A stretch of DNA of 64,000 nt from NCBI GenBank assembly GCA_050953885.1, contig JBMNNJ010000001.1, forward strand, positions 399,437-463,436, written 5' to 3'. Shown here one piece after another: positions 40,368-64,000 of the stretch (positions within the stretch are counted from its first letter, which is position 1; each line of letters begins with the position of its first letter). Made by a program: the position numbers and the translations under genes. Under the pieces are notes generated by a model. That model was not told the origin of the DNA. It saw only the letters and a program-made list of their open reading frames with translations, and did no database searches. Source of the stretch: Patescibacteria group bacterium. Its GTDB lineage: Bacteria; Patescibacteriota; Microgenomatia; 0-14-0-10-38-17.

Positions 40368-40369
40368 AA

Positions 40370-45269: not shown

Positions 45270-45276
45270 TTAGGAA

Positions 45277-45836: not shown

Positions 45837-46129
45837 TTCTCATTTGCGTATTTTTAACAACATTACCTCTAACTACAGGCTTTTTCACGAAAAAATTATC
45901 CGTCTTCTTTCTTTCCCTAAGAATTCCCAATCTCTTCGTTTTTAATCCTTTAAAAACCTCCTTTTAAAAACGGGCAAATAAATGTTTTGGCTGATAAAAT
46001 GATAAAAAAAGAACTGTCGTTTTTTTTATCAATCTCACCTCATCACTGATAAAAAACCGCCCTTTGGCCCAAAAACTCTCTTTTGCTATAATATTTTTGT
46101 GAAAAAAACCAAAATAACAACCAAAAGGC

Positions 46130-46340: not shown

Positions 46341-46720
46341 AAGAACCCTACCCTCCTTCTTCTTTCCACTTCTTAATATTAAGATGTCTTAATTTACCTT
46401 TTGATATGCGGCTAAAATTCGCATGAAATTCATGTGAAAAAATACCCGCAAACTTCTGCGGTAATTACTAAAGCTATTTCTCCATTTTTAGGGCCTATCT
46501 AAAACCATCAAAATATATCAACTTTAAAAAATAGGGGACTTGACAAACATTTTATAATAGTGTACGCTTTTTATAATTCTGATAATTTATGATAATTTAA
46601 GGCTAAAATTTTATTACCGCAAAAATCATGAACAATCAAAAGGCATCAAACCAAATAGTAGACTTTCTTACTGTTTTTTTGATTTTTTTAATGAGTTTTA
46701 TTTGGCTGTTTATTTAACAT

Positions 46721-47203
46721 ATGCCCCAAACCCTGCTCTCCTCTTTCCGGCTTTATCTTAAAGCCCAAGGGAAAAAGGAAAACACCATCAGGAATTATCT
46801 TCAGGACATTGATCACTTTTTCTCTTGGCTTTCCTCCCAAATTAAAGATTCTTCACTGCAAGCGCTTCTTAACGACCCTAACAAAATAGCTCAAAACATA
46901 ACGGTTAAAAATTTAACTGTCTATCAGCGATTTTTGGAAAAAAATGAAGTTTCCCCTACCACTATCAACCGCCGCCTTTCCTCTCTTCGCCAATTGACAA
47001 AGTTTTTCCTTTCTCAAGGTTGGTTAAAAGAAGACCCAATAAAAAAATTAGCCAATATCTCCATTGAAAAAGAAACCGATAAAACTTCGCAAATTCTGGA
47101 AAAGTTTGCCAAAGCGCTTGAAGAAGAAGGGAAAAGCAAAACCACCATTAGAAATTATCTTTCTGACGTGAAGGGGTTTTTGGAATGGCACGAAAAAGAT
47201 TAA
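46721..47203 (+). CDS. Small protein made of tandem phage-integrase-N-terminal-like (SAM-like/core-binding) modules, with no catalytic domain
   Basis: Three ~35-aa modules of the pattern FxxYLxxxGxSxxTIxxYLxxxxxFxxW: SFRLYLKAQGKKENTIRNYLQDIDHFFSWL, VYQRFLEKNEVSPTTINRRLSSLRQLTKFF and LEKFAKALEEEGKSKTTIRNYLSDVKGFLEW. Confidence 0.5.
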   Translation: MPQTLLSSFRLYLKAQGKKENTIRNYLQDIDHFFSWLSSQIKDSSLQALLNDPNKIAQNITVKNLTVYQRFLEKNEVSPTTINRRLSSLRQLTKFFLSQGWLKEDPIKKLANISIEKETDKTSQILEKFAKALEEEGKSKTTIRNYLSDVKGFLEWHEKD

Positions 47204-47215
47204 AAAGTTAAAAAA

Positions 47216-47776
47216 ATGACCAACAGAATTATTTTGCCTCACGGCAATTATCGTCAGCTTAAATCGTTCCAAACTACAACAATTATTTACGATTTCACGA
47301 TGGCTTTTTGTAATCAATACCGGTCCCTCCTGACTTACAAGAACTACGAGCAAATGATCGGTGGTGCCAGATCGGGTAAGCAAAATATCGCCGAAGGCAG
47401 TCAGGTTTCTGGCACTTCTAAAAAAACAGAGATAAAACTTACCAGCGTTGCCCGTGGGTCACTTGAAGAATTGCTTCAAGATTGCCTTGATTTTCTTCGC
47501 CAAAACAATCTTGTTTTGTGGGATAAAAACGATCCCCGGGCTATTACCATCCGCAAGATTGCTTATAAGCCTGATCGGTCTTATGAGTCCTACAAGTCCT
47601 ATCTTAAAGACCCGGAAAGCGCCGTCAACTGCCTAATTTGCTTAATTCATCAGGCTAATTTTCTTCTTGACCGTCAGCTTGAAGCTTTAGAAAAAGATTT
47701 TTTAGAAAATGGCGGCTTCACTGAAAGGCTTTATCGGGAAAGAAGCGAAGCAAGAAAAAAGCAAAAATATGACTAA
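47216..47776 (+). CDS. Four-helix-bundle protein (23S rRNA intervening-sequence protein / Avd-like family), long form
   Basis: Family motifs NIAEGS...S and ARGSLEEL in the expected spacing. The stop overlaps the start of the giant gene (ATGACTAA). Confidence 0.55.
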   Translation: MTNRIILPHGNYRQLKSFQTTTIIYDFTMAFCNQYRSLLTYKNYEQMIGGARSGKQNIAEGSQVSGTSKKTEIKLTSVARGSLEELLQDCLDFLRQNNLVLWDKNDPRAITIRKIAYKPDRSYESYKSYLKDPESAVNCLICLIHQANFLLDRQLEALEKDFLENGGFTERLYRERSEARKKQKYD

Positions 47777-50700
47777 TAGGACTAATAGGACCAATAATAG
47801 GACCAACTCAGCGGGCTTTTTAGAACCATTGCAAATTCAGGCTTACCTGAAAAGGCTTAAAAAGGAAGGGGCTTCTCCGGCCACTCTTAAACGCAAGGAG
47901 GCGGCCTTAAAAAAATTCCAAAGCTGGCAGGGAAAAGAATACGGACCAAAGTATCCCTTGCCAAAAGGCGCCCCTAAGCCCAAAAAGATAATCTCTAAGA
48001 AGGGAATTTTCCCCAAGGCTTTTCCTCCTTTTTTAAGATATTTTTCTTTCCTAATCGGTTTGGTGCTTTTGGCTAGTTTAGGCTGGGGAGTTTATAGCCA
48101 ATTTTTTGCCCAGCCGAAAGAAACCCCCTCCATGGCCTTCCCTACTAACCCGCCGCTCTTAATTTCTTTTCAGGGTCAGCTTACCGATGATGACGGCACT
48201 CCGATTAATGCCACTATTCCTGCCATTTTCCGCCTTTATAATGTGGACGAGGGTGGTACCGCTCTTTGGGAAGAGCAAAAAAATGTCTCCACCGACCAGG
48301 ACGGCATTTTCAATACTTTCTTGGGTGACACCGCCACGCTGGATCCGGCCATTTTTCGCGACAATATGAATCTTTGGCTGGCAATTGAAATCGACAACGA
48401 CGGGGAAATGGAACCCCGTCAGCAAATTGCCACCGTGGGCTATGCTTTCAATTCCCGCTATCTTCAAGGTTATGAGGCCACCACAGCAGCTACCGCTAAC
48501 ACCATACCGGTTATTAATGCCGATGGCGATTTAATTTTAGCCTCCTCCTCTCCCGCCATTGAAGCCACCTCCGGCACCTTTGGCCTTAAAGGCGAAGCGA
48601 TTACTATTCAATCAACCGGCGGCACGGGCGGCGGGGATATTTTAATTCAGCCCGATGCCGATACCCAAGGACAGGTAATTATCTACTCGGCAACTACCGC
48701 CGACAATTCTTTTACCGTTCAAAATAGCAATATCACCACTGGCTCGCTAATTTATGGCGAGGCCGGTACTAGCGCTAGCGGTTATAACCTGCTAAAACTT
48801 ACCTCCGGAAGCCTTTTAACCGATAAGTTTGTGGTTGACTATGCCGGCAACACCGACATCGCCGGCAACTTAACCGTTGACAGTTCCGGATTTTTTGGCA
48901 ATAGTGTCGGCATCGGCACCACCAGCCCCGGGGCAACCTTGGATGTTAACGGCAACTTACGAATTGGCACCCTGACAACAGGCTCCACCGATACCGTCTT
49001 AACCCACTCCAACAATATTGTCCAGCAAAGAACAATTGATCCCCGGGTTTGGGGGGAAACCTTGGTAGACGGCAGCGGTAGTGCCGGCTATGTGGCCTAC
49101 TGGCAGGATGCCAATACCCTGACGGGGGAGCAATACCTCGCCACCTCAAGAGGTGGCACCGGCGATGACACCTCCTCTACCACTGGTGTCCCCTACATTT
49201 CTTCCGGCAACTGGCAATATGAATCAAGTTTAAATGTGAGCCGGGGCGGCACTGGGTTTTCTTCTTTAGCAGCTGGCTCCCTAATCTACGGTTCCGGCTC
49301 CTCCCCAATGAACGCTTTAGCAATTGGCACTACTAACTATGTTTTAACCTCCAATGGTTCTGCTCCTAACTGGTCACTAATTAGCCAGGCAAATATCAGT
49401 CCTGATTCTCTAGACTTTGACCAATTCCAGGATACCCTAGATCTGGATACTGACTTAGTCTTAAATCAAGCCGCTTACACCTGGACGCAAAACTTTACCG
49501 GAGCAACTACTACCGGCTTAACTTACAACGCTAATGCTTTAACTTCAGGAAAAGGGGTATATGTTTCTTCTACTTCAACTGGTTTAACAGGAAACTTGGC
49601 AGAAATAAGTCTGTCGGGAAACAATGCCGCCAACACCGGTAATGTTTTAAGACTGGCCCAAACTGGCGCCTTATCAGCGGCAATTCCTTTAATGGTGACC
49701 AATCTTGGCGCCGGCGCTTCCTTCAGGGTTAACGATGAAACGGGCGACAATGACAGCACCCCCTTTATTATTGATGCTTCCGGCGCTGTGGGGGTGGGAA
49801 CAGCCATGCCAAACGCCTCGGCAATTCTTGATTTAACTTCAACCGCCAAGGGCTTTCTTGCTCCAAGAATGACTACCAGCCAAAGAGATGCTATTGTTAA
49901 CCCCGCCGCCGGCCTTTTAATCTATAACACCACCACCAATCAATATAACATGTATAACGGCACGGGCTGGACTCTTATTGGCGGCGGAGATGTTTCTTGG
50001 AGTAGCTTAATTGACCCGACAGAAAATCTCTTGCTAAACCATGGGGCCTACACCACCACCTTTACCTGGGGAGCCTCAACCGGAGCTAATAACCTCTTTA
50101 CCCTTACCGATACGGCCAACAATACCGGCACGGGCTACCTTTTAAACCTTAATACCGCCACGGGGTCAAGTCTTAAACCTTTAAGGGTGGCTTCGGCCGG
50201 AGTTGAGGCTTTGGCCATCGATGCCGCCGGCAATGTGGGGATCGGGACAACGAGCCCGGGAGAAAAGTTGGATGTAGTTGGAGCAATCCGTTCCAGTGGA
50301 GTCGATGTATCATCTTTAAATCCAGGAACAAGCACCACCGGAGGTTTATATTTAGGTGCACATATGGGACACCTTATACTTGACTTAAGAAATAATGATT
50401 CCAATGACTCAATTGCTTTCCGATATTCAGCGGCAAACAACACAGTAGTAGATACTATTGGTCTAGTTATGAAAGGCGGAACTGGCAACGTCGGCATCGG
50501 CACCACCAGCCCCGGGGCAACCTTGGATGTTAACGGCAACTTACGAATTGGCACCCTGACAACAGGCTCCACCGATACCGTCTTAACCCACTCCAACAAT
50601 ATTGTCCAGCAAAGAACAATTGATCCCCGGGTTTGGGGGGAAACCTTGGTAGACGGCAGCGGTAGTGCCGGCTATGTGGCCTACTGGCAGGATGCCAATA

Positions 50701-53700
50701 CCCTGACGGGGGAGCAATACCTCGCCACCTCAAGAGGTGGCACCGGCGATGACACCTCCTCTACCACTGGTGTCCCCTACATTTCTTCCGGCAACTGGCA
50801 ATATGAATCAAGTTTAAATGTGAGCCGGGGCGGCACTGGGTTTTCTTCTTTAGCAGCTGGCTCCCTAATCTACGGTTCCGGCTCCTCCCCAATGAACGCT
50901 TTAGCAATTGGCACTACTAACTATGTTTTAACCTCCAATGGTTCTGCTCCTAACTGGTCACTAATTAGCCAGGCAAATATCAGTCCTGATTCTCTAGACT
51001 TTGACCAATTCCAGGATACCCTAGATCTGGATACTGACTTAGTCTTAAATCAAGCCGCTTACACCTGGACGCAAAACTTTACCGGAGCAACTACTACCGG
51101 CTTAACTTACAACGCTAATGCTTTAACTTCAGGAAAAGGGGTATATGTTTCTTCTACTTCAACTGGTTTAACAGGAAACTTGGCAGAAATAAGTCTGTCG
51201 GGAAACAATGCCGCCAACACCGGTAATGTTTTAAGACTGGCCCAAACTGGCGCCTTATCAGCGGCAATTCCTTTAATGGTGACCAATCTTGGCGCCGGCG
51301 CTTCCTTCAGGGTTAACGATGAAACGGGCGACAATGACAGCACCCCCTTTATTATTGATGCTTCCGGCGCTGTGGGGGTGGGAACAGCCATGCCAAACGC
51401 CTCGGCAATTCTTGATTTAACTTCAACCGCCAAGGGCTTTCTTGCTCCAAGAATGACTACCAGCCAAAGAGATGCTATTGTTAACCCCGCCGCCGGCCTT
51501 TTAATCTATAACACCACCACCAATCAATATAACATGTATAACGGCACGGGCTGGACTCTTATTGGCGGCGGAGATGTTTCTTGGAGTAGCTTAATTGACC
51601 CGACAGAAAATCTCTTGCTAAACCATGGGGCCTACACCACCACCTTTACCTGGGGAGCCTCAACCGGAGCTAATAACCTCTTTACCCTTACCGATACGGC
51701 CAACAATACCGGCACGGGCTACCTTTTAAACCTTAATACCGCCACGGGGTCAAGTCTTAAACCTTTAAGGGTGGCTTCGGCCGGAGTTGAGGCTTTGGCC
51801 ATCGATGCCGCCGGCAATGTGGGGATCGGGACAACGAGCCCGGGAGAAAAGTTGGATGTAGTTGGAGCAATCCGTTCCAGTGGAGTCGATGTATCATCTT
51901 TAAATCCAGGAACAAGCACCACCGGAGGTTTATATTTAGGTGCACATATGGGACACCTTATACTTGACTTAAGAAATAATGATTCCAATGACTCAATTGC
52001 TTTCCGATATTCAGCGGCAAACAACACAGTAGTAGATACTATTGGTCTAGTTATGAAAGGCGGAACTGGCAACGTCGGCATCGGCACCACCAGCCCCGGG
52101 GCAACCTTGGATGTTAACGGCAACTTACGAATTGGCACCCTGACAACAGGCTCCACCGATACCGTCTTAACCCACTCCAACAATATTGTCCAGCAAAGAA
52201 CAATTGATCCCCGGGTTTGGGGGGAAACCTTGGTAGACGGCAGCGGTAGTGCCGGCTATGTGGCCTACTGGCAGGATGCCAATACCCTGACGGGGGAGCA
52301 ATACCTCGCCACCTCAAGAGGTGGCACCGGCGATGACACCTCCTCTACCACTGGTGTCCCCTACATTTCTTCCGGCAACTGGCAATATGAATCAAGTTTA
52401 AATGTGAGCCGGGGCGGCACTGGGTTTTCTTCTTTAGCAGCTGGCTCCCTAATCTACGGTTCCGGCTCCTCCCCAATGAACGCTTTAGCAATTGGCACTA
52501 CTAACTATGTTTTAACCTCCAATGGTTCTGCTCCTAACTGGTCACTAATTAGCCAGGCAAATATCAGTCCTGATTCTCTAGACTTTGACCAATTCCAGGA
52601 TACCCTAGATCTGGATACTGACTTAGTCTTAAATCAAGCCGCTTACACCTGGACGCAAAACTTTACCGGAGCAACTACTACCGGCTTAACTTACAACGCT
52701 AATGCTTTAACTTCAGGAAAAGGGGTATATGTTTCTTCTACTTCAACTGGTTTAACAGGAAACTTGGCAGAAATAAGTCTGTCGGGAAACAATGCCGCCA
52801 ACACCGGTAATGTTTTAAGACTGGCCCAAACTGGCGCCTTATCAGCGGCAATTCCTTTAATGGTGACCAATCTTGGCGCCGGCGCTTCCTTCAGGGTTAA
52901 CGATGAAACGGGCGACAATGACAGCACCCCCTTTATTATTGATGCTTCCGGCGCTGTGGGGGTGGGAACAGCCATGCCAAACGCCTCGGCAATTCTTGAT
53001 TTAACTTCAACCGCCAAGGGCTTTCTTGCTCCAAGAATGACTACCAGCCAAAGAGATGCTATTGTTAACCCCGCCGCCGGCCTTTTAATCTATAACACCA
53101 CCACCAATCAATATAACATGTATAACGGCACGGGCTGGACTCTTATTGGCGGCGGAGATGTTTCTTGGAGTAGCTTAATTGACCCGACAGAAAATCTCTT
53201 GCTAAACCATGGGGCCTACACCACCACCTTTACCTGGGGAGCCTCAACCGGAGCTAATAACCTCTTTACCCTTACCGATACGGCCAACAATACCGGCACG
53301 GGCTACCTTTTAAACCTTAATACCGCCACGGGGTCAAGTCTTAAACCTTTAAGGGTGGCTTCGGCCGGAGTTGAGGCTTTGGCCATCGATGCCGCCGGCA
53401 ATGTGGGGATCGGGACAACGAGCCCGGGAGAAAAGTTGGATGTAGTTGGAGCAATCCGTTCCAGTGGAGTCGATGTATCATCTTTAAATCCAGGAACAAG
53501 CACCACCGGAGGTTTATATTTAGGTGCACATATGGGACACCTTATACTTGACTTAAGAAATAATGATTCCAATGACTCAATTGCTTTCCGATATTCAGCG
53601 GCAAACAACACAGTAGTAGATACTATTGGTCTAGTTATGAAAGGCGGAACTGGCAACGTCGGCATCGGCACCACCAGCCCCGGGGCAACCTTGGATGTTA

Positions 53701-59700: not shown

Positions 59701-62700
59701 TTAATGGCTCGCCAGCGATAGAGTTTGCTTCTTGCGGGACTTCTTACGGAGGTTGTTATATCAAGGAAGGATGGGGCCCTGAATTATATTCCAATACATC
59801 GCAACCTTTTCAAGTTTTAAATACTTCACTTTTGGTTGGATATGACCAAACAGATTCAACCGCCAGAGGAAGCGGTAATTTACTCGTAAGCGGCAATGTC
59901 GGCATCGGGACGACGGGGCCGAACACTGAACTAAGTTTAAATCACGGTTATATAAATTTTGAGCCCTCGCTAACCTCGTGGCTAAAAACTGGAGGAGAAG
60001 GAATACTTATGTGGAACTCTAATGATATTGAGTGGCTCGAATCAACATACGAGAGCGGATACGGCCACAGATTATATTCCATCGATCCTGGGGCAGGTGC
60101 AGTTACACACCTTCGGCTAGCCGCAAGAAATAACTCTGCCTCGTGGACAGATATGGTTACTTTTGTTTCTAACGGCAACGTCGGCATCGGGACGACGGGG
60201 CCACAACATAAATTACATATTTATACGACAACCGCACAAGAGGGAATAATTATTAACGCTGGCACTTATCCAGAAATCAGATTTGAAGAGGCTGGAACAG
60301 TAAGAGGCTATCTTAGCGTTGCTGGAAGCGCAGGAGGATATGGAACAGGCACATTAGCTGATTCTATGATACTTCGCGCTGAAGGTAATATGCATCTTAT
60401 TACGAATGCAGGGACTGTGGTACAAACATTAACCAGTGGCGGCAATGTGGGCATTGGGACAACAACTCCGGGGGCAAGACTGGATGTTAACGGCAATTTA
60501 AAAATCGCCACCCTGACAACCGGCGCCACCAATACGGTTTTAACCCACAGCGGCAATATTGTCCAGCAAAGAACCATTGATTCCCGAGTTTGGGGATCAG
60601 CGTTGGTTGATTATTCCGGCACCTCGGCTAACTACATTCCCAAAATGCTTGACGCCGACACGATTACCAATTCCCTAATTTACGAAGCCGCCAGCAGCCG
60701 CCGCATCGGCATTAGCACCACCAGCCCGGGTTCAAAATTAACCGTTGCCGGCGGCGCTTCCTATTTTGGCGCCCTGCCTGCCCCCACCGGAGTAGTGGCC
60801 ACTCCCACCTCGGGAGGCGGCTTAGTGGCGGGAACTTACTATTATGTGGTCAACGCCTTTGACAGCAACAACCTTTCCTCAAACAAATCAAGCCAGGTTT
60901 CCTGCACGGTTGATGGCTCTACCACCACCGCCTGCCAAATTTCCTGGGTGGCCGTTCCCGGCGCCACCAACTACCGCGTTTACGGCAGAGCCAGCAACGC
61001 CCAAAACCAATACTGGCAAACCACTTCTCTCTACTACACCGACACCGGCGCCGCCGGCGCCAGCGACACGCCGCCGGGACCAATCTCCGCTTTCTTTACC
61101 GGCAATATAAAAGCGGAACGCTTTGCGGATTCGGCTAACGACACCTACTACCTTGATCCGGCCTATGCCACTCTTTCCCTCACCACCGCCGGAGCGGCGG
61201 GCATCGGCTACTCGGCCGGCCAGATGAGCGGTGCCACCGCCAAGCTGGCCGTTGACGGCAATGTGGGAATTGGGACGACGAGTCCGGGGGCAAAGCTACA
61301 TGTAAATGCTGGTGCAGCACAATTGACAATGGAAAGAGATGAAACCCACATTAACACATGGGATTTCAGAATCACTCAGGAGGCGGGCATCTCTGCAAAC
61401 TCCCTATACCTGAGAGCGTCAGAAAATACAGCCGACTTTGGAATAAGGGCAGCTAATTCTGGGAACGTCCAGTTCATTTTGAAGGGCCCAACAGGCAACG
61501 TCGGCATCGGGACAGTTTTCGGCGAAGCAGATACTACAGGAAAATTGAACGTAAGAAAAGATAGCACAGCAGATGGAATGATTAGCGATGTTCTTACGTT
61601 GCGCAATCATTGGCATACCGTTACTAATATAGGAACTGGAATTGCATTGAGATTTAAACAAGGATCAACCAGCGAAACCGGAAAGCTTGTTGATATTGGT
61701 TCAATTGCTGAAAGTGGGTGGAGCAACGCAGTCGGTTTCTTTGTTAAGACTGGTGGTACTGAAAGGTTAAGAATAAGTAACGGCGGCAACGTCGGCATCG
61801 GGACAGCGAGTCCAAGTTACCCACTACACGTATATAAAAATGCAGGTGACTGGACGGCGCGCTTCCAAAACACTTCGGGATCCATAGATATTGGACCAGC
61901 CAATGGTAGTGGAGCCCACATTTATACAGACCTAAGCCAATTTTTCTTTAATCAACCCATTACCCTCACGGGCACCAGCAGTATTTCTTCTTATTCCACG
62001 AATAATCTCTATCTTAAAACAGGTACGCAGGCTAACACAAGGATGACAATTCTTGCTAGTAATGGCAATGTCGGCATCGGGACGACGGGGCCTGTTCAAA
62101 AATTGCATGTTGAAGGCAATTGTGTAACGGGAGATACAAAGTTAGCAATTTTTGAGGATCACAGTTCACAGTTCACAGTTCACAGCAATGCTCCTTCAGA
62201 GCAGATCACAGATCACAGATCACAGTTCACGGAAATACAAATAAAGGATATAAAATCAGGAACAAAAGTATATTCGCTAAATCAAGAAACTGGGAAACTA
62301 GAACCTGCTAGGATCAACAAACTTCTTGACATGGGAACAAAGCCTGTATTTAAATTAACTACAGAGGGTGGAAAAGAGATTCGCACCACTGGCAACCACC
62401 CATATCTTGCCCAACTATCTTATGAACAATACCAGCAAAGAGTTCAACTTCGAGAAACTGGAAGTTTGGAAGAAGAGTATGGCCTTAGTCAAGGCGATCT
62501 ATCAGTTGCTCGAGAGTTTTCCCAAACACGAGAGGTATGGTCTAGTGGATCAACTTCGCCGAGCAGCAACCTCAATTCTTCTGAATATCGCCGAGGGGAA
62601 CGGGAGGTACAGCCACAAGGAATTTATCCAATTTCTCTATCAGGCCAGGGGCAGTCTCTACGAGGTGGTGGCTTGTCTCAAACTAACTCAAGAGCTGGGT

Positions 62701-64000
62701 TACTTAACTCAGCAACAGATTACTCCTCTACTCCAACAGACTCACGAGATCAACAGGATGCTCTCGGGGCTGATCAATTATCTCAAGAAGAAAGCTGGCA
62801 AAGCCAGCTAAATCACGGTTCACCGTTCACGGATCACAGATGGGTGAAGGTGATTTATTTATCTCCAGGTGACTCTATTGCTACCGCTTCTTTCTGTGAA
62901 CCAAGAACAGTGAACGGTGAACCACGAGCCGAAGGCGAGTATAACTCCCGTGAACTACGATCTGTGAACTGTGAACCATACGTTGTTTGGGACAAAATCG
63001 TTTCCATCGAGTATGTTGGCTATGAGCAGGTCTATGACATAGAGGTTGAGGGCACGCATAACTTTGTTGCTAATGGAATTTTGGCCCATAACACGTATAT
63101 TAGCGGCAATGTCGGCATCGGGACGACGAGTCCGGGGTACAAACTAGACGTAAATGGAACACTAAACGCCACATCAATCTATGAGAACGGAACACCGCTC
63201 TCTAACAGTTATAGCAACGTTGTTTATAAATATGGGCCAACAGGTTTAAATGGAGCGGCCACTAGTGATTTTGGATTAAGAATTACTCACTCAACTGGTG
63301 ATACCAGTCACGCTGACCATGGTTCTTATTTAGTTAACATTAAAAGCAGGTACATTGATGAAACGTGGCTTTTCTACTTAGCATCTGAATATCTCGGGGC
63401 ATACAAGTATAATATAGAGCGGGTGGGTGGGCATACGAACAGCGTTACCGCAGTACTGGTAACAAATACTAGTACGAGTTTTCAATTAGAACTGCAAACA
63501 TCAGGATCACAAAATGACTGGCATAGCGTAACGGTCACTAGAGTTGGGTATTCTCAGTCCGGTAATCCAACGTTTAGTTACATTGATTCCACAGCATTTA
63601 GTGCTGGTACTACTGTTGGTAGGAAATCTTGGATTGGGAATAACAATGGTGGAACAAGTACTTACTATAGCGGCAACGTCGGCATCGGGACGACGAGTCC
63701 AGGGTATACACTACATGTTAACGGCACGGCCAATATCGGCTCTTCTTTATACGTTGCCGGCAACCAACGCTTTAATTCCTCCGGCGCTCTTATTCCCCAT
63801 ACCGTTTCTTCAACCACTAAATTTACTAACCTTAACGCCGATATGGTTGACGGTTATAGCTACTCCTCCTCTTGGCCAAATGCCTCAAATACTGTCCTGC
63901 GTTCAGGCTCCACTACAAACTACATACCAAAATGGAGCGGAACCTATACCCTAACTAATTCAATTATCTACGATAACGGCACCAATGTCGGCATCGGGAC
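47769..64000 (+). CDS. Giant tail-fibre-like repeat surface protein, more than 5,400 codons in the window and still open at the window end
   Basis: The frame of 47769 (positions divisible by 3) has no listed stop to 64000. Hand translation of several long stretches confirmed it is open. N-terminal integrase-CB-like module (IQAYLKRLKKEGASPATLKRKEAALKKFQSW), a TM anchor (FLIGLVLLASLGWGVY), then modules with the GNVGIGTTxPxxKL(D/H)VNG motif. Also LAPRMTTSQRDAIVNPAAGLLIYNTTTNQYNMYNGTGW, and an FN3 segment (YYYVVNAFDSNN...ISWVAVPGATNYRVYG). All ORF-track entries in this span are in other frames or antisense. Confidence 0.85.
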   Translation, partial: MTNRTNRTNNRTNSAGFLEPLQIQAYLKRLKKEGASPATLKRKEAALKKFQSWQGKEYGPKYPLPKGAPKPKKIISKKGIFPKAFPPFLRYFSFLIGLVLLASLGWGVYSQFFAQPKETPSMAFPTNPPLLISFQGQLTDDDGTPINATIPAIFRLYNVDEGGTALWEEQKNVSTDQDGIFNTFLGDTATLDPAIFRDNMNLWLAIEIDNDGEMEPRQQIATVGYAFNSRYLQGYEATTAATANTIPVINADGDLILASSSPAIEATSGTFGLKGEAITIQSTGGTGGGDILIQPDADTQGQVIIYSATTADNSFTVQNSNITTGSLIYGEAGTSASGYNLLKLTSGSLLTDKFVVDYAGNTDIAGNLTVDSSGFFGNSVGIGTTSPGATLDVNGNLRIGTLTTGSTDTVLTHSNNIVQQRTIDPRVWGETLVDGSGSAGYVAYWQDANTLTGEQYLATSRGGTGDDTSSTTGVPYISSGNWQYESSLNVSRGGTGFSSLAAGSLIYGSGSSPMNALAIGTTNYVLTSNGSAPNWSLISQANISPDSLDFDQFQDTLDLDTDLVLNQAAYTWTQNFTGATTTGLTYNANALTSGKGVYVSSTSTGLTGNLAEISLSGNNAANTGNVLRLAQTGALSAAIPLMVTNLGAGASFRVNDETGDNDSTPFIIDASGAVGVGTAMPNASAILDLTSTAKGFLAPRMTTSQRDAIVNPAAGLLIYNTTTNQYNMYNGTGWTLIGGGDVSWSSLIDPTENLLLNHGAYTTTFTWGASTGANNLFTLTDTANNTGTGYLLNLNTATGSSLKPLRVASAGVEALAIDAAGNVGIGTTSPGEKLDVVGAIRSSGVDVSSLNPGTSTTGGLYLGAHMGHLILDLRNNDSNDSIAFRYSAANNTVVDTIGLVMKGGTGNVGIGTTSPGATLDVNGNLRIGTLTTGSTDTVLTHSNNIVQQRTIDPRVWGETLVDGSGSAGYVAYWQDANTLTGEQYLATSRGGTGDDTSSTTGVPYISSGNWQYESSLNVSRGGTGFSSLAAGSLIYGSGSSPMNALAIGTTNYVLTSNGSAPNWSLISQANISPDSLDFDQFQDTLDLDTDLVLNQAAYTWTQNFTGATTTGLTYNANALTSGKGVYVSSTSTGLTGNLAEISLSGNNAANTGNVLRLAQTGALSAAIPLMVTNLGAGASFRVNDETGDNDSTPFIIDASGAVGVGTAMPNASAILDLTSTAKGFLAPRMTTSQRDAIVNPAAGLLIYNTTTNQYNMYNGTGWTLIGGGDVSWSSLIDPTENLLLNHGAYTTTFTWGASTGANNLFTLTDTANNTGTGYLLNLNTATGSSLKPLRVASAGVEALAIDAAGNVGIGTTSPGEKLDVVGAIRSSGVDVSSLNPGTSTTGGLYLGAHMGHLILDLRNNDSNDSIAFRYSAANNTVVDTIGLVMKGGTGNVGIGTTSPGATLDVNGNLRIGTLTTGSTDTVLTHSNNIVQQRTIDPRVWGETLVDGSGSAGYVAYWQDANTLTGEQYLATSRGGTGDDTSSTTGVPYISSGNWQYESSLNVSRGGTGFSSLAAGSLIYGSGSSPMNALAIGTTNYVLTSNGSAPNWSLISQANISPDSLDFDQFQDTLDLDTDLVLNQAAYTWTQNFTGATTTGLTYNANALTSGKGVYVSSTSTGLTGNLAEISLSGNNAANTGNVLRLAQTGALSAAIPLMVTNLGAGASFRVNDETGDNDSTPFIIDASGAVGVGTAMPNASAILDLTSTAKGFLAPRMTTSQRDAIVNPAAGLLIYNTTTNQYNMYNGTGWTLIGGGDVSWSSLIDPTENLLLNHGAYTTTFTWGASTGANNLFTLTDTANNTGTGYLLNLNTATGSSLKPLRVASAGVEALAIDAAGNVGIGTTSPGEKLDVVGAIRSSGVDVSSLNPGTSTTGGLYLGAHMGHLILDLRNNDSNDSIAFRYSAANNTVVDTIGLVMKGGTGNVGIGTTSPGATLDVNGNLRIGTLTTGSTDTVLTHSNNIVQQRTIDPRVWGETLVDGSGSAGYVAYWQDANTLTGEQYLATSRGGTGDDTSSTTGVPYISSGNWQYESSLNVSRGGTGFSSLAAGSLIYGSGSSPMNALAIGTTNYVLTSNGSAPNWSLISQANISPDSLDFDQFQDTLDLDTDLVLNQAAYTWTQNFTGATTTGLTYNANALTSGKGVYVSSTSTGLTGNLAEISLSGNNAANTGNVLRLAQTGALSAAIPLMVTNLGAGASFRVNDETGDNDSTPFIIDASGAVGVGTAMPNASAILDLTSTAKGFLAPRMTTSQRDAIVNPAAGLLIYNTTTNQYNMYNGTGWTLIGGGDVSWSSLIDPTENLLLNHGAYTTTFTWGASTGANNLFTLTDTANNTGTGYLLNLNTATGSSLKPLRVASAGVEALAIDAAGNVGIGTTSPGEKLDVVGAIRSSGVDVSSLNPGTSTTGGLYLGAHMGHLILDLRNNDSNDSIAFRYSAANNTVVDTIGLVMKGGTGNVGIGTTSPGATLDVNGNLRIGTLTTGSTDTVLTHSNNIVQQRTIDPRVWGETLVDGSGSAGYVAYWQDANTLTGEQYLATSRGGTGDDTSSTTGVPYISSGNWQYESSLNVSRGGTGFSSLAAGSLIYGSGSSPMNALAIGTTNYVLTSNGSAPNWSLISQANISPDSLDFDQFQDTLDLDTDLVLNQAAYTWTQNFTGATTTGLTYNANALTSGKGVYVSSTSTGLTGNLAEISLSGNNAANTGNVLRLAQTGALSAAIPLMVTNLGAGASFRVNDETGDNDSTPFIIDASGAVGVGTAMPNASAILDLTSTAKGFLAPRMTTSQRDAIVNPAAGLLIYNTTTNQYNMYNGTGWTLIGGGDVSWSSLIDPTENLLLNHGAYTTTFTWGASTGANNLFTLTDTANNTGTGYLLNLNTATGSSLKPLRVASAGVEALAIDAAGNVGIGTTSPGAKLHVNAGAAQLTMERDETHINTWDFRITQEAGISANSLYLRASENTADFGIRAANSGNVQFILKGPTGNVGIGTTAPGAKLDVNGTGRFATSVSSPLFQGDTGAVTFGNASYATTIAGSGLTISPTAWTATPTISGLITATLGLTANGALTANSTFTLGDGADAGSVNTSSWDISTTGVASGFTGLTSSGTITFSSLAANRLVTTTTGGELTTSAEGTVGQPLLSGGTSSPNWGTLGLVYGGTNADLSGVAQGGLIYKETSALAGTGALTGILQGNNASAPTAITGTANYLPKWSSTAPYLTTASQIFDSGANVGIGNSNPQALLHVGAGGTPNYASSGDVYIQNDLEVDGTIYGALDITDATFDFLEVKRAATFSAQIASDIPITVKNTGGNEVARFTNEGKLRLGSAGAPTDTLDIDGDADISGNLDVGNGLDVLGANFTVGGANFTVSQAGTVTGGTYNGQTISSTASFTGTLSVASTFNANSNVGLGNEATDTINAAGQFVSGLIPQTNSYNLGSPTNHWGALYVDSIYGGQVGEFDFLKARGATLSAEIPTDKTLVLEGLASGHTANLIEANANGATALTLSPAGNLTLGGTITLPNGNTLTGVASYIQFNNGISVGGGTTYRLTSTGDAYLNNLYTGGTQRLSSTGALANITDYSQSSGNFAISGTGTFSTATGNISLNGATTVADGKSFTANGPVTLGDGGDAVAINSNIWDITSAGVASGLTQLTVDNLQLDGNTLSSTTDNITLDAAAYLVIADQIASSLIPSATNTYDLGSPENYWDDAYINTLTANSLNFDFIAARGATFSAEIPTDKTLVLNAATGQTANLLEINSAPGASGDLMVVTGGGNVGIGNSNPGTYKLDVAGTGRFNSTANPGLTVGNGAIGYLKIGGSTIYDNNSDLTLDSDTALVILADDLQINGNDIYDSGANQRINLGATTTLYNTTTILSGTTALTASSLATFTTASSLAMPATTSLTLGGSATIYGGTTASGTLTLQSTSNATKGNILINPSGGNVGIGTTGPGAKLSINGSPAIEFASCGTSYGGCYIKEGWGPELYSNTSQPFQVLNTSLLVGYDQTDSTARGSGNLLVSGNVGIGTTGPNTELSLNHGYINFEPSLTSWLKTGGEGILMWNSNDIEWLESTYESGYGHRLYSIDPGAGAVTHLRLAARNNSASWTDMVTFVSNGNVGIGTTGPQHKLHIYTTTAQEGIIINAGTYPEIRFEEAGTVRGYLSVAGSAGGYGTGTLADSMILRAEGNMHLITNAGTVVQTLTSGGNVGIGTTTPGARLDVNGNLKIATLTTGATNTVLTHSGNIVQQRTIDSRVWGSALVDYSGTSANYIPKMLDADTITNSLIYEAASSRRIGISTTSPGSKLTVAGGASYFGALPAPTGVVATPTSGGGLVAGTYYYVVNAFDSNNLSSNKSSQVSCTVDGSTTTACQISWVAVPGATNYRVYGRASNAQNQYWQTTSLYYTDTGAAGASDTPPGPISAFFTGNIKAERFADSANDTYYLDPAYATLSLTTAGAAGIGYSAGQMSGATAKLAVDGNVGIGTTSPGAKLHVNAGAAQLTMERDETHINTWDFRITQEAGISANSLYLRASENTADFGIRAANSGNVQFILKGPTGNVGIGTVFGEADTTGKLNVRKDSTADGMISDVLTLRNHWHTVTNIGTGIALRFKQGSTSETGKLVDIGSIAESGWSNAVGFFVKTGGTERLRISNGGNVGIGTASPSYPLHVYKNAGDWTARFQNTSGSIDIGPANGSGAHIYTDLSQFFFNQPITLTGTSSISSYSTNNLYLKTGTQANTRMTILASNGNVGIGTTGPVQKLHVEGNCVTGDTKLAIFEDHSSQFTVHSNAPSEQITDHRSQFTEIQIKDIKSGTKVYSLNQETGKLEPARINKLLDMGTKPVFKLTTEGGKEIRTTGNHPYLAQLSYEQYQQRVQLRETGSLEEEYGLSQGDLSVAREFSQTREVWSSGSTSPSSNLNSSEYRRGEREVQPQGIYPISLSGQGQSLRGGGLSQTNSRAGLLNSATDYSSTPTDSRDQQDALGADQLSQEESWQSQLNHGSPFTDHRWVKVIYLSPGDSIATASFCEPRTVNGEPRAEGEYNSRELRSVNCEPYVVWDKIVSIEYVGYEQVYDIEVEGTHNFVANGILAHNTYISGNVGIGTTSPGYKLDVNGTLNATSIYENGTPLSNSYSNVVYKYGPTGLNGAATSDFGLRITHSTGDTSHADHGSYLVNIKSRYIDETWLFYLASEYLGAYKYNIERVGGHTNSVTAVLVTNTSTSFQLELQTSGSQNDWHSVTVTRVGYSQSGNPTFSYIDSTAFSAGTTVGRKSWIGNNNGGTSTYYSGNVGIGTTSPGYTLHVNGTANIGSSLYVAGNQRFNSSGALIPHTVSSTTKFTNLNADMVDGYSYSSSWPNASNTVLRSGSTTNYIPKWSGTYTLTNSIIYDNGTNVGIG
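48906..56575 (+). repeat. Perfect tandem array of five 1,584-bp coding units (528 aa each; the fifth is ~0.84 of a unit) inside the giant gene
   Basis: Unit starts at 48906, 50490, 52074, 53658 and 55242. The ORF-track antisense ORFs recur with an exact 1,584-bp period and identical sequences. Sequence diverges at about 56575. Confidence 0.9.
56558..56820 (+). repeat. Copy 1 of an exact ~252-bp duplication inside the giant gene. Copy 2 is at 61255-61507.
   Basis: By eye, identical from ggcaatgtgggaattgggacgacgagtccgggggcaaagctacatg ... to ggcaacgtcggcatcggga in both places. Confidence 0.85.
62157..62990 (+). repeat. Heptamer (TTCACAG/CTGTGAA) direct and inverted repeat blocks that bracket the intein interior and the nested four-helix-bundle ORF
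   Basis: Left block 62157-62231 (cacagttcacagttcacagttcacag...cacagatcacagatcacagttcacgg). Right blocks 62811-62843 (direct), 62893-62923 and 62949-62978 (inverted: ctgtgaactgtgaacc). These allow a long-range stem L/R3 and a local hairpin R1/R2. Confidence 0.7.
62422..62811 (+). CDS. Four-helix-bundle protein (23S rRNA intervening-sequence protein / Avd-like family) encoded in the +1 frame inside the intein
   Basis: The ORF-track ORF 62368..62811 contains a near-canonical family sequence: [83 protein letters not shown]. The likely start is MNNTSKEF at 62422. It sits where an intein homing endonuclease would be. Confidence 0.8.
   Translation: [129 protein letters not shown]

What the first reader, a model, noticed from the sequence alone, without database searches (positions are those of the whole stretch)
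47769..64000. Giant (>5,400-codon) tail-fibre-like surface protein gene that the ORF track misses
Reading frame 0 is open from the ATG at 47769 to the window end, so the gene continues past 64000. It does not appear in the six-frame list only because it has no stop in the window. Every listed ORF in this span is antisense or out of frame. The protein has an integrase-core-binding-like N-terminal module and a single TM anchor. It is then built from dozens of modules, each opening with GNVGIGTTxPxxKL(H/D)VNG, with an FN3 segment among them. It is visibly GC-richer than the housekeeping part of the window. For a genome of this small-genome type it would be one of the largest genes and probably the main cell-surface fibre or adhesin.
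Basis: seen in the sequence. Interest (0 to 1): 0.8.

Follow-up and report, generated by a model that had tools for sequence, protein, structure and literature searches.

The report
Giant fibre gene with gene-carrying intein
The giant open frame is a real gene for a membrane-anchored, phage-tail-fibre-like surface fibre of an ultra-small (Patescibacteria) bacterium, and it is interrupted by a self-splicing intein that carries a second complete gene written in a different reading frame, an arrangement I found described in no paper.

Summary
The core observation holds. Frame 0 from ATG 47769 to 64000 is open for 5,410 codons. The organism is a Shapirobacteria-related Patescibacteria MAG. The protein has a short SAM-like cytoplasmic N-terminus, one TM helix, an N-proximal domain shared by thousands of proteins (many 2,000-6,300 aa), and a shaft of GNVGIGTT modules homologous to Bdellovibrio MAT fibres (PDB 8OND) and phage tail fibres. 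No FN3, S74 or pectate-lyase domain was detected. Of the 5,410 codons, 2,112 come from a base-perfect 4.84-copy array of a 1,584-nt unit, and its copy number is assembly-dependent. Relatives suggest about 1,050 more codons beyond the window.

Residues 4785-5108 are a canonical class-1 intein at a fixed module junction (…KLHVEG(N/Q)|C…HN|TYISGNVGIGTT), a site shared by about 40 inteins in about 30 MAG contigs. Its endonuclease slot holds a full-length 23S-rRNA-IVP gene (62422-62811) in the +1 frame. The host frame is kept open by codon-level selection (40 of 40 at-risk junctions avoid T; P about 1e-7). This replicates in five further loci and is absent from free-standing IVP genes. Sister inteins carry antisense toxin-antitoxin genes or an in-frame NYN nuclease.

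The parts
47769..64000 (+). Giant ORF, 5' 16.2 kb (5,410 codons), running off the window. An alternative in-frame ATG lies at 47709.
   Evidence: No stops. The same sequence is present in JGI contig Ga0591961_000493 up to 50616. A syntenic complete orthologue, P0374, has 5,631 aa.
47811..47939 (+). Cytoplasmic N-terminal SAM-like half-domain (aa ~15-57), followed by a Lys/Pro-rich linker.
   Evidence: Phage_int_SAM_1 at E 1.4e-3, below the cut-off. BLASTP E 2e-4 to aa 126-160 of the upstream SAM-like protein. The segment is rich in K and R, consistent with the positive-inside rule (sequence).
48024..48104 (+). Single transmembrane helix (aa ~86-112), acting as a signal-anchor.
   Evidence: It is the only stretch with a Kyte-Doolittle 19-aa mean above 1.6.
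48105..48896 (+). Conserved N-proximal extracellular domain (aa ~113-376), MAT_N-like.
   Evidence: NF053851 Bdello_MAT_N at aa 128-191, E 2e-6, below the cut-off. aa 20-376 are conserved in 278 representatives at E<=1e-30 and 5,006 at E<=1e-10.
48906..56575 (+). Base-perfect tandem array: 4.84 copies of a 1,584-nt (528-aa) unit. Both array boundaries fall inside GNVGIGTT-coding motifs.
   Evidence: The JGI short-read contig ends 127 nt into copy 2. The 94%-identical strain L127 shows a single 0.84 copy.
49764..49997 (+). PF26696 (PTL_trimer)-type subdomain of the unit (aa 666-743). It is repeated every 1,584 nt within the array.
   Evidence: Homologues that carry PF26696 align to unit residues 289-366 at 50-68% identity. 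It is the only confident part of the AF2 unit model, at pLDDT 91-94.
56564..56821 (+). 258-nt exact repeat, copy 1. Copy 2 is at 61256-61513.
   Evidence: 100% identity, 4,692 nt apart.
61617..62120 (+). Beta-helix-type fibre modules (aa ~4617-4784) ending in the N-extein flank …GNVGIGTTGPVQKLHVEGN.
   Evidence: phrog_18345 at E 6e-28 and phrog_9942 at E 1e-23. PDB 8OND Bd2133 at E 8e-9 and 8OJN at E 1e-4. Phage tail fibres at 30-39% identity.
62121..63092 (+). Class-1 intein, 324 aa. Cys1 is aa 4785, block B T4874..H4877, C-terminal His-Asn ends at aa 5108, and +1 is Thr5109.
   Evidence: PF14890 at E 4.5e-22. TIGR01445 and TIGR01443 above their cut-offs. AF2 Hint core at pLDDT >90. Foldseek top hits are DnaB mini-inteins with TM 0.80-0.88. 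Residues checked.
62422..62811 (+). Nested gene in the +1 frame: a full-length 23S_rRNA_IVP (four-helix-bundle, Avd-like) protein of 129 aa.
   Evidence: PF05635 at E 2.8e-41, profile 1-106 of 106. Dual-coding constraint and controls.
62157..62236 (+). Heptamer arrays A1 (62157-62189) and A2 (62204-62236), G(T/A)TCAC(A/G)G, in the + orientation.
   Evidence: 11 pattern matches against 0.38 expected, and only here in the window. TRF.
62811..62843 (+). Heptamer array B, directly after the IVP stop codon.
   Evidence: Predicted to pair with array C1.
62896..62978 (-). Heptamer arrays C1 (62896-62924) and C2 (62950-62978), in the inverted orientation.
   Evidence: Inverted repeats I1-I14. RNA fold z = -6.5 with A2:C2 and B:C1 pairing.
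63093..64000 (+). C-extein, starting TYISGNVGIGTT… The last 330 nt are 93% identical to relatives whose gene runs about 1,054 aa further.
46721..47203 (+). Upstream gene: 160-aa protein made only of integrase-type SAM-like domains. It is syntenic in the orthologous locus.
   Evidence: PF02899 at E 1.7e-17. Synteny in L126 and L127.
47216..47776 (+). Upstream gene: 186-aa IVP-like protein that overlaps the giant gene's start by 8 nt. This gene pair is conserved next to giant fibre genes.
   Evidence: PF05635 at E 8e-6, below the cut-off. Homologues lie directly upstream of giant genes in L126 (twice), L047, L040 and L127.

Best explanation
47769->64000 is the 5' 16.2 kb of a genuine, very long gene of a Patescibacteria (Shapirobacteria-related) bacterium.

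**The protein.** It is a type-II membrane-anchored fibre. It has a short cytoplasmic SAM-like N-terminus, one TM helix and a conserved N-proximal domain. After that comes a long shaft of phage-tail-fibre / Bdellovibrio-MAT-type beta-helical modules punctuated by the motif GNVGIGTTxPxxKLxV. Part of the shaft is a 528-aa unit amplified to 4.84 identical copies by recombination between motif-coding sequences. By comparison with close relatives, a conserved C-terminal region of about 650-770 aa ending in …FNWWIIN lies beyond the window, for a total of about 6,460 aa.

**Inferred function.** By analogy, the protein is exported through Sec with its signal-anchor, trimerises, and projects from the cell to bind the surface of the host bacterium on which these epibionts depend.

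**The intein.** The shaft is interrupted by a canonical class-1 intein at a module junction, and the intein must splice out to give a continuous fibre. The intein is bracketed by 36-nt direct repeats that encode the motif. It could therefore spread to, or be lost from, any module junction by ordinary homologous recombination, without an endonuclease.

**The nested gene.** The intein's endonuclease slot is occupied by a complete 23S-rRNA-IVP gene in the +1 frame. The peptide this stretch encodes in the host frame is discarded with the intein. Selection therefore only has to keep that frame free of stops, and it visibly does so.

**What is shown and what is inferred.** Shown: the ORF, the homologies, the intein anatomy and fold, the nested gene, and the dual-coding constraint. 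Inferred: export, trimerisation, adhesion, actual splicing, expression of the IVP gene, and recombinational mobility.
For: - **ORF:** 5,410 codons with no stop. The sequence is identical in an independent JGI contig up to the repeat.
- **Taxon:** LeuRS is 100% identical to an NCBI Patescibacteria MAG protein and about 65% to Shapirobacteria.
- **Fibre homology:** PHROG tail-fibre families at E 6e-28 and 1e-23. PDB Bd2133 8OND at E 8e-9, with the alignment running through the motif. Phage tail fibres at 30-39% identity. Weak MAT_N hit. Homologues are named 'tail fiber domain-containing' or 'cell wall surface anchored', and some end in PF13884. MAT family definition from PMC10769870.
- **Anchor:** a single TM helix and a K/R-rich N-terminus.
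- **Family and orthologue:** 278 representatives at E<=1e-30 and 5,006 at E<=1e-10, with a median length of 2,007 aa and a maximum of 6,346 aa among the top 150. The syntenic 5,631-aa orthologue has 5 inteins and the same C-terminus as L062.
- **Intein:** Pfam and TIGRFAM hits above cut-offs. Cys1, TxxH, HN and +1 Thr are present. AF2 model plus Foldseek. About 40 inteins share the identical site. 826 homologues.
- **Nested gene:** PF05635 at E 2.8e-41. 0 of 40 at-risk junctions carry a third-position T, against 33% elsewhere (P about 1.4e-7), and 0 of 20,000 resamplings keep the frame open. This replicates in 4 other loci at 0-0.6%. The IVP frame is more conserved than the host frame in all 4 comparisons. 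Free-standing IVP genes have 6-16 stops in the equivalent frame, against 0 in every nested copy. AF2 pLDDT is below 50 exactly over the overlap.
- **Flanking repeat:** 62057-62092 and 63098-63133, 86% identical, 1,041 nt apart, which is in frame.
Against: - The gene's 3' end is not in the window, and the exact source contig could not be fetched. Total length and the tip domain are therefore extrapolated from relatives that match only the last 330 nt at 93%.
- The array copy number is unverified. A 94%-identical strain shows one 0.84 copy, and the orthologue's internal repeats are only 81-97% identical.
- The monomer AF2 model of the unit is poor (pLDDT 56), so the beta-helical trimeric fold rests on sequence homology for a subset of modules.
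- The MAT_N and SAM-like hits are below curated cut-offs.
- No expression, splicing or localisation data exist.
- How an intein splices in a Sec-exported protein is unresolved.
- No promoter or RBS for the IVP gene was found above background.
Confidence: 0.75

Rival explanations
1. The gene is real, but its length in this window is inflated. On this view the 4.84-copy perfect array is an assembly or polishing artefact, or a strain-specific and very recent expansion. The typical allele would have one or two units, about 3,300-3,800 codons in the window span.
For: The array is 100% identical over 7.67 kb, which is unusual even for the family, where the orthologue's repeats are 81-97% identical. 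A short-read assembly breaks exactly 127 nt into copy 2. The 94%-identical strain L127 runs through a single 0.84 copy into 56799+.
Against: The JGI contig contains a unit-end to unit-start junction, so at least 2 tandem copies exist in that sample. L127 has about 1x coverage, and short-read assemblers collapse tandem cycles. Every copy number keeps the frame, since 1,584 = 3 x 528. A 597-kb contig suggests a long-read or well-curated assembly.
Confidence: 0.25
2. It is a prophage or tailocin tail-fibre gene, not a cellular surface protein.
For: The best-scoring annotated families are phage tail-fibre PHROGs and cyanophage tail fibres.
Against: The protein has an N-terminal cytoplasmic domain plus a TM anchor. 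The flanks are housekeeping genes (LeuRS, ArgRS, ComEC, NDK, the L10 operon, tRNAs). The same three upstream genes and the same anchor occur in a second Patescibacteria genome. Thousands of homologues share the anchor architecture. No capsid, terminase or baseplate hits appeared among the neighbours scanned.
Confidence: 0.04
3. The Hint domain does not splice. Instead it acts as a BIL-like autoproteolytic module that cleaves the fibre, for example releasing or maturing the distal part.
For: The host is a variable, non-essential surface protein, which is the typical BIL context (PMC7765530). Weak PT-HINT and Hint hits occur in sister copies. BIL2 structures are among the fold matches.
Against: All canonical splicing residues are present, including the +1 Thr that A-type BILs lack. 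The intein N- and C-terminal TIGRFAM models score above their cut-offs. The best fold matches are DnaB mini-inteins. Both extein flanks are highly conserved and would rejoin into a normal module junction.
Confidence: 0.12
4. The nested IVP ORF is a decaying relic of an insertion, and the open host frame across it is chance or composition.
For: No promoter or RBS signal above background. The product is not called as a gene in any assembly on record.
Against: The HMM match is full-length at E 2.8e-41. The copy has 46-71% identity across five loci and is always more conserved than the host frame. None of the 40 at-risk junctions carries a T (P about 1e-7), and this replicates. Free-standing homologues have 6-16 stops in that frame. 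Gene callers cannot report same-strand nested ORFs, which explains why it is absent from the records.
Confidence: 0.05
5. The fibre is a structural envelope component (an S-layer-like lattice, sheath or spacer) rather than a host-binding adhesin.
For: There is no recognisable lectin or receptor-binding domain in the window. The shaft is highly repetitive. The C-terminal region is conserved across relatives at 30% identity, whereas MAT and phage fibre tips are usually variable.
Against: The closest characterised relatives (MAT fibres, phage tail fibres) are receptor-binding fibres. The gene is mosaic between close strains, as expected for host-range determinants. Length-variable shafts are typical of adhesins.
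Confidence: 0.2

Closest known systems
Bdellovibrio bacteriovorus MAT (mosaic adhesive trimer) fibres, e.g. Bd2133 (PDB 8OND) and 8OJN/8ONB/8ONC (Caulton et al. 2024, PMC10769870)
   Same: The sequences are homologous through the (G)xVGIxTxxPxxKLHV motif and the following beta-helix module (E 8e-9). There is a weak match to the MAT N-terminal domain. The construction is mosaic and chimeric, with a conserved base and a modular shaft. Both belong to bacteria that attack or attach to other bacteria.
   Different: This protein is about 5-6 times longer. It is anchored by its own TM helix plus a cytoplasmic SAM-like domain, rather than by a secreted N-terminal domain. It contains an intein and a perfect tandem array. 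No S74 chaperone was detected in the window or in the close relative's C-terminus. The MAT_N score is below the family cut-off. The phylum is different.
Phage tail fibres (PHROG 18345 and 9942; cyanophage S-SM2, S-B28 and pelagiphage fibres)
   Same: The module homology is significant. Relatives of the host protein sometimes end in the Peptidase_S74 chaperone.
   Different: The context is chromosomal and housekeeping, the protein has a membrane anchor, and it is far larger.
Canonical mini-inteins (e.g. Ssp/Npu DnaB inteins, PDB 6FRG, 4O1R, 1MI8)
   Same: The Hint fold matches (TM 0.80-0.88). Cys1, TxxH, HN and the +1 nucleophile are all present, and the insertion is in frame.
   Different: The host is a repetitive, non-essential surface fibre rather than a replication or repair enzyme. 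The same site recurs up to 5 times within one gene. The endonuclease slot holds a gene in another frame rather than an in-frame endonuclease or a short linker.
Bacterial intein-like (BIL) domains (Amitai et al. 2003; summarised in PMC7765530)
   Same: These are also Hint domains in variable bacterial surface or secreted proteins.
   Different: A-type BILs lack the +1 nucleophile and B-type BILs lack the C-terminal motif. Here both are present, and canonical intein models score above threshold.
23S_rRNA_IVP ORFs in rRNA intervening sequences and in CPR rRNA insertions (PMC11270868)
   Same: The protein family is the same (PF05635). In both cases the gene sits inside an insertion that is removed from the mature host product, and both occur in CPR bacteria.
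   Different: Here the self-removing host element is an intein that is removed at the protein level. The passenger therefore has to be translated through in a second frame, so there is true dual coding.
Overlapping (overprinted) genes of viruses (PMC8227390)
   Same: Two reading frames cover one DNA stretch, and one of them encodes a disordered product.
   Different: The older, structured frame is the imported passenger. The overlapping host-frame peptide has no function of its own and is discarded by protein splicing. The arrangement is chromosomal and bacterial.
Ter DnaB-1 intein of Trichodesmium with large tandem repeats in the endonuclease position (Yang, Meng & Liu 2004; recalled from memory, not checked here)
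   Same: It is a precedent for unusual non-endonuclease sequence tolerated in the intein slot. The window's copy likewise has heptamer arrays there.
   Different: That case has in-frame repeats only, with no second gene.
Giant genes of Omnitrophota and other host-associated bacteria (bioRxiv 10.1101/2023.11.21.568195; PMC11573180)
   Same: These are very long, repeat-rich surface proteins that fragment assemblies. They are linked to predatory or epibiotic lifestyles.
   Different: The domain families differ, and inteins are not mentioned in either paper.

Membership tests
Intein (class 1) | N-terminal Cys/Ser/Thr nucleophile (block A) | tested here: met
   Cys4785 in …HVEGN|CVTGDTK. TIGR01445 scores 33.8 bits against a cut-off of 24.5.
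Intein (class 1) | Block B TxxH | tested here: met
   T4874-G-N-H4877. These positions are at least 90% conserved in a 40-sequence alignment.
Intein (class 1) | C-terminal His-Asn followed by a +1 Cys/Ser/Thr | tested here: met
   …GILAHN5108|T5109. TIGR01443 scores 42.5 bits against a cut-off of 15.6.
Intein (class 1) | Hint fold | tested here: met
   The AF2 core has pLDDT >90. Foldseek top hits are DnaB mini-inteins at E 1e-10 with TM 0.80-0.88.
Intein (class 1) | Protein splicing actually occurs | not testable with these tools
   This needs expression followed by MS or SDS-PAGE.
Intein with homing endonuclease | In-frame LAGLIDADG, HNH or other nuclease between the splicing halves | tested here: not met
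   The only Pfam hit in the host frame is Intein_splicing. The slot has pLDDT <50. A sister intein in L042 has an in-frame NYN domain.
BIL domain (A or B type) | Lacks the +1 nucleophile (A type) or lacks the C-terminal HN motif (B type) | tested here: not met
   Both HN and +1 Thr are present.
23S_rRNA_IVP (PF05635), for the nested ORF | Full-length HMM match above the gathering score | tested here: met
   140.4 bits against a cut-off of 33.8, E 2.8e-41, profile 1-106 of 106.
Diversity-generating retroelement (Avd context) | Reverse transcriptase plus a TR/VR pair with adenine-specific mismatches | tested here: not met
   No ORF of at least 120 aa has a YxDD motif. The mismatches in the one diverged repeat pair are not A-specific. 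The bAvd Pfam hit is below its cut-off. The gene's 3' end was not seen.
Bdellovibrio MAT fibre family | Invariant N-terminal MAT domain (NF053851) | tested here: inconclusive
   E 2e-6 but only 27.7 bits against a cut-off of 60, covering aa 128-191.
Bdellovibrio MAT fibre family | Beta-helix fibre modules homologous to the solved MAT structures | tested here: met
   8OND at E 8e-9 and 8OJN at E 1e-4.
Bdellovibrio MAT fibre family | Trimeric assembly and surface display | not testable with these tools
   The monomer AF2 model of the unit was poor, at pLDDT 56. No multimer tool was available.
Bdellovibrio MAT fibre family | C-terminal S74 chaperone or an alternative tip domain | tested here: inconclusive
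   The C-terminus lies outside the window. The close relative L062/L004 has no Pfam hit. More distant homologues do carry PF13884.
Phage tail fibre | Encoded in a phage or prophage with virion genes | tested here: not met
   The flanks are housekeeping genes, and the gene order is syntenic in a second genome.
FN3 domain | Match to a Pfam fn3-type model | tested here: not met
   No hit at E<=0.1 on the long segments or at E<=10 on aa 4320-4460. A structure-based test was not done.
Phage integrase N-terminal SAM-like domain | Pfam PF02899 above the gathering score | tested here: inconclusive
   19.3 bits against a cut-off of 22.3, covering only profile positions 44-78. Paralogue match at E 2e-4.

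The most novel reading that the evidence does not exclude
Inteins at the module junctions of Patescibacteria and DPANN fibre genes may form a previously undescribed kind of 'safe harbour'. Small selfish or defence-type genes (23S-rRNA-IVP/Avd-like, ParE toxins, DUF433-DUF5615 PIN-like pairs) would settle there in alternative frames or antisense. They would be expressed from there and be maintained under a dual-coding regime in which the host-frame peptide is junk that protein splicing throws away. A stronger version would make the IVP family a general accessory of self-removing insertions (rRNA intervening sequences and inteins alike), contributing to their maintenance or mobility. That would give a first functional handle on this uncharacterised family.
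Probability: 0.4. Interest if true: 0.85.

Novelty: new variant of a known kind. Interest (0 to 1): 0.72.

Why it matters
**The fibre.** It adds a very large, membrane-anchored relative of phage tail fibres and Bdellovibrio MAT fibres to ultra-small epibiotic bacteria. That makes it a concrete candidate for the still poorly understood host-attachment apparatus of CPR cells. Its length can change in 528-aa steps.

**The intein.** This is the more surprising part.
- It sits in a non-essential, repetitive surface protein at one fixed motif junction.
- The same site can be occupied up to five times in one gene.
- It is bracketed by repeats that offer an endonuclease-free route of spread and loss.

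**The nested genes.** The endonuclease slot holds complete genes in another frame or on the other strand. There is clear, replicated codon-level selection that keeps the host frame open. Reviews list only endonuclease-containing, mini and split inteins, and this would be a fourth configuration. It would be an unusually clean natural example of dual coding in a bacterial chromosome.

**A practical consequence.** Gene callers cannot report such nested genes: the product is on record nowhere. Annotations of these genomes are therefore systematically missing them.

Tried and rejected
- **Finding the gene's end.** A genome-contig scan and a metagenome-contig scan found no 100% match to the window's last 900 nt. 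They found only a 93% relative (L004 = L062). Look-ups through the upstream ORF, LeuRS and the nested IVP product did not return the 597-kb contig. The stop codon was therefore not found.
Pfam, NCBIfam and PHROG scans gave no S74, pectate-lyase or FN3 hit.
- **My own recollection.** I thought the relative's C-terminus ('DLAEMVP…GIVSTQPG') resembled a Peptidase_G2/IMC domain. Pfam did not confirm it, and there was only a weak PHROG tail-fibre hit at E 1.4e-3.
- **AlphaFold of one 528-aa unit.** The model was poor (pLDDT 56), so I did not use it for fold search.
- **DGR hypothesis** (raised because IVP is Avd-like). No RT and no A-biased repeat were found.
- **Heptamer arrays as a family feature.** They are absent from all 127 other loci and from the other IVP-bearing inteins.
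- **Own promoter or terminator for the IVP gene.** Nothing above shuffled background.
- **Permutation test on codon-aligned antisense passengers.** It is uninformative by construction and gave 1.0. I replaced it with a TTA/CTA/TCA-avoidance test.
- **Literature.** Searches on inteins with overlapping, antisense or TA genes, inteins in CPR giant proteins, and inteins with NYN domains found nothing relevant.
Full report

Translating 47769-63998 in frame gives 5,410 sense codons with no TAA, TAG or TGA. The nearest upstream in-frame stop is at 47703. Chance cannot produce this. The ORF tool omits ORFs that run off the source, which explains why it is missing from the list.

GC is 0.497 against 0.413 for the rest of the window. 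By codon position the exteins have GC1/2/3 of 0.47/0.52/0.51, against 0.51/0.37/0.40 in other genes. Most of the excess is therefore amino-acid composition (Gly+Ala+Thr+Ser = 45%), with a real rise at position 3 as well.

Only one hydrophobic stretch exists, at aa ~86-112. It is preceded by a K/R-rich segment.

An in-frame ATG also lies at 47709, and the JGI gene call uses it. The orthologue starts 'MTN…', like the 47769 start, and overlaps its upstream gene by only a few bases, so 47769 is the better start.

**2. The tandem array**

s[i] = s[i+1584] holds for every base from 48906 to 54991. That defines an array at 48906-56575, which is 4.84 copies of a 528-codon unit at 100% nucleotide identity. 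Both array ends fall inside GNVGIGTT-coding motifs. This points to unequal recombination between motif copies.

Three assemblies bear on the copy number:
- A JGI short-read contig is 100% identical to window 37216-50616 and stops exactly 127 nt into copy 2. That is the signature of a k=127 assembler meeting a tandem cycle. It also shows that a unit-end to unit-start junction exists.
- A 94%-identical strain (L127, about 1x coverage) runs from the N-terminus through a single 0.84 unit into the sequence at 56799+.
- The orthologue's internal repeats are only 81-97% identical.

The array is therefore either very recent or partly an assembly product. It contributes 2,112 of the 5,410 codons. A second exact 258-nt repeat (56564-56821 = 61256-61513) shows that sequence exchange between modules is ongoing.

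**3. Organism and locus**

The window's LeuRS is 100% identical to an NCBI 'Patescibacteria group bacterium' MAG protein on a 597,657-nt contig. The next named relatives are Candidatus Shapirobacteria at about 65%. The flanks are housekeeping: LeuRS, ArgRS, ComEC, NDK, the L10 leader and six tRNAs.

Directly upstream lie three genes: a Big_1-like gene, a 160-aa protein made only of integrase-type SAM-like domains, and a 186-aa IVP-like ORF that overlaps the giant gene's start. The same trio precedes a complete 5,631-aa orthologue (P0374, L126) in another Patescibacteria MAG.

**4. What the protein is**

Pfam finds nothing in the shaft, but other searches do:
- PHROGs give tail-fibre families (phrog_18345 at E 6e-28, phrog_9942 at E 1e-23).
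- tblastn finds cyanophage and pelagiphage tail fibres at 30-39% identity.
- The PDB sequence search hits Bd2133 (8OND, E 8e-9) and 8OJN/8ONB/8ONC, with the alignment running through the motif.

The PDB hits are the Bdellovibrio 'mosaic adhesive trimer' (MAT) fibres. These are surface-displayed trimeric beta-helix fibres with an invariant N-terminal domain and swappable S74 or non-S74 tips (PMC10769870).

NCBIfam's MAT N-terminal model hits aa 128-191, but below its cut-off.

Each 528-aa unit contains a subdomain of about 75 aa (aa 666-743 in the first copy). This matches proteins that carry PF26696 'PTL_trimer', a model newer than the local Pfam copy. It is the only confidently modelled part of the unit.

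The anchor region (aa 20-376) defines a large family: 278 representatives at E<=1e-30 and 5,006 at E<=1e-10. Among the best 150, the median length is 2,007 aa and the maximum is 6,346 aa.

The close relative L062 (= L004) matches the window's last 330 nt at 93% and has a different module upstream of that, so the gene is mosaic. Its gene continues for about 1,054 aa. Its C-terminus aligns with that of P0374 (E 4e-66), and both end in …FNWWIIN. Extrapolating gives about 6,460 aa for the window's gene.

The 'FN3 segment' was not detected, and no S74 or pectate-lyase domain was found.

**5. The intein**

aa 4785-5108 (nt 62121-63092) begin CVTGDTK… They contain TTGNHP and end …THNFVANGILAHN, followed by Thr. 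The evidence that this is a canonical class-1 intein:
- Pfam Intein_splicing at E 4.5e-22, with both TIGRFAM intein-end models above their cut-offs.
- An AlphaFold model built on a 40-sequence alignment gives a Hint core at pLDDT 92-97.
- Foldseek's best PDB matches are DnaB mini-inteins, with TM 0.80-0.88 normalised to the target.

tblastn over the fetched loci found about 40 inteins in about 30 MAG contigs. These come from many Patescibacteria lineages, Omnitrophota, Elusimicrobia and a DPANN archaeon. All sit at the same junction: …GNVGIGTTxPxQKLHVEG(Q/N) | C(V/I)TGD… …HN | TYISGNVGIGTT…. One gene can hold up to five (L016/L126, L044). 826 homologous proteins exist, and nearly all are fragments on short contigs.

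In the alignment to Bd2133, the site falls at about the E813/N814 boundary between two beta-helix domains described in the paper. This assumes chain 8OND_A is numbered from N662, so it is approximate.

The intein is bracketed by 36-nt direct repeats that encode the motif (62057-62092 and 63098-63133). They are 86% identical and 1,041 nt apart, which is in frame. Recombination between motif copies could delete the intein cleanly or copy it to another junction. That step is inference.

**6. The nested gene**

Read in the +1 frame, 62422-62811 encodes a 129-aa protein that matches PF05635 (23S_rRNA_IVP) over the whole profile, at E 2.8e-41. The giant gene's frame stays open across it, and the other sense frame has 23 stops.

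A stop would arise in the host frame wherever an IVP codon ending in T precedes a codon starting AA, AG or GA. There are 40 such junctions, and none has T. Elsewhere, 32.6% of codons end in T, which gives P of about 1.4e-7. None of 20,000 synonymous resamplings keeps the frame open.

The arrangement recurs elsewhere:
- The same +1 arrangement occurs in L011, L015, L016 (= L126), L020 and L039, with 46-71% IVP identity.
- Permutation leaves the host frame open in only 0-0.6% of trials in the four of these loci tested, L011, L015, L016 and L020.
- The IVP frame is always more conserved than the host frame: 71/54/46/49% against 48/30/24/35%.

The control is clean. Free-standing family members in the same set of loci have 6-16 stops in the equivalent frame, every nested copy has 0, and the third frame has 7-16 stops in both classes.

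The AF2 model has pLDDT below 50 exactly over the overlap (residues 160-246 of the model).

So the IVP protein is the selected product of this stretch. The host-frame peptide only has to lack stops, which makes sense if it is removed with the intein. No assembly on record calls this gene.

**7. Sister inteins**

Other copies at the same site carry different contents in the slot:
- L032 carries antisense ParE toxins (E 4e-7 and 1.5e-6).
- L024 and L033 carry antisense DUF433 + DUF5615 (PIN-like) pairs (E 1e-21 to 3e-15). L043 has a pair that reads the same way but was not scanned with Pfam.
- L042 carries an in-frame NYN nuclease (E 1e-20).

The host frame has no stops over the antisense genes. 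The codon-aligned antisense genes use none of the three codons (TTA, CTA, TCA) that would create stops in the host frame. Each case has P between 6e-4 and 0.05.

IVP genes are already known as passengers of self-removing insertions in rRNA genes, including in CPR bacteria (PMC11270868). Reviews list only endonuclease-containing, mini and split inteins (PMC7765530). I found no paper describing genes in alternative frames inside inteins, or inteins in these fibre proteins.

**8. Unexplained**

Five clusters of the heptamer G(T/A)TCAC(A/G)G occur inside the window's intein: three direct and two inverted. There are 11 matches against 0.38 expected, and nowhere else in the window or in 127 loci. 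They encode low-confidence loops in the host frame. They are predicted to pair A2:C2 and B:C1 in RNA, with a z-score of -6.5. Their role is unknown.

**9. Verdict**

The finding is real and its interpretation is broadly right. It is a giant, tail-fibre-like, membrane-anchored surface fibre, best compared with MAT fibres. It belongs to an existing large family, its length is partly an unstable perfect amplification, and several claimed domains are not there.

Export, trimerisation, adhesion, splicing, IVP expression and recombinational mobility are all inferences that need the experiments listed.

Noticed in passing
window 62157-62236, 62811-62843 (+); 62896-62978 (-): Five arrays of the heptamer G(T/A)TCAC(A/G)G lie inside the intein. 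They occur nowhere else in the window or in 127 other loci. They are predicted to form long-range RNA helices (A2:C2 and B:C1; z = -6.5) around the N-intein/IVP region and around a 54-nt intein segment. Their function is unknown.
   Followed up: partly
window 46721-47203 and 47216-47776; L126 4858-6004 and 22898-23461; L047 5498-6031; L040 5006-5572; L127 80-1118: A SAM-like-only small protein and a ~186-aa IVP-like ORF sit directly upstream of giant fibre genes in several genomes, with the ORF overlapping the giant gene's start. In L126 the IVP-like ORF type precedes each of two consecutive giant genes. This is a conserved gene pair of unknown role.
   Followed up: partly
L032 1814-3613; L024 8939-10027; L033 1295-2419; L043 3955-5079; L017 10094-11323: Sister inteins at the same fibre junction carry antisense genes while the intein frame stays free of stops. 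Pfam confirmed ParE toxins in L032 and DUF433 + DUF5615/PIN-like pairs in L024 and L033. L043 has a pair that looks the same but was not scanned. L017's RelE/ParE-like ORFs gave no Pfam hit.
   Followed up: partly
L126 6001-22896 (= P0374; same contig as L016): A complete 5,631-aa orthologue carries five inteins of this family in one gene. The fifth corresponds to the window's intein and also holds the +1 IVP gene.
   Followed up: partly
L042 5378-6646; proteins P0019, P0026, P0028, P0034, P0035, P0039, P0064: Some inteins of this family have an in-frame NYN (PIN-like nuclease) domain in the endonuclease position. This is a possible unconventional homing nuclease. No paper in the library mentions inteins together with NYN domains.
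   Followed up: partly
window 56564-56821 and 61256-61513: An exact 258-nt repeat lies 4.7 kb apart within the gene and encodes the same 86-aa module. This suggests recent gene conversion between modules.
   Followed up: no
window 50135-50599, 51719-52183, 53303-53767, 54887-55351 (-): Four identical antisense 154-aa TTG-start ORFs are listed by the ORF tool. They are copies of one antisense frame of the repeat unit. I did not test whether they are coding.
   Followed up: no
L062 1-640 versus window 63000-63671: The closest relative shares the gene's 3' part at 93% nt identity but has an unrelated module immediately upstream. This is a mosaic breakpoint at about window 63672.
   Followed up: partly
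L125 4441-8944 versus window 26000-36447: In one JGI sample the identical LeuRS gene is followed by a different set of genes than in the window. This could be a rearrangement or a strain difference.
   Followed up: no
window 1-64000: GC skew is negative in every 2-kb bin of the window (-0.33 to -0.001). It is weakest over the giant gene.
   Followed up: no
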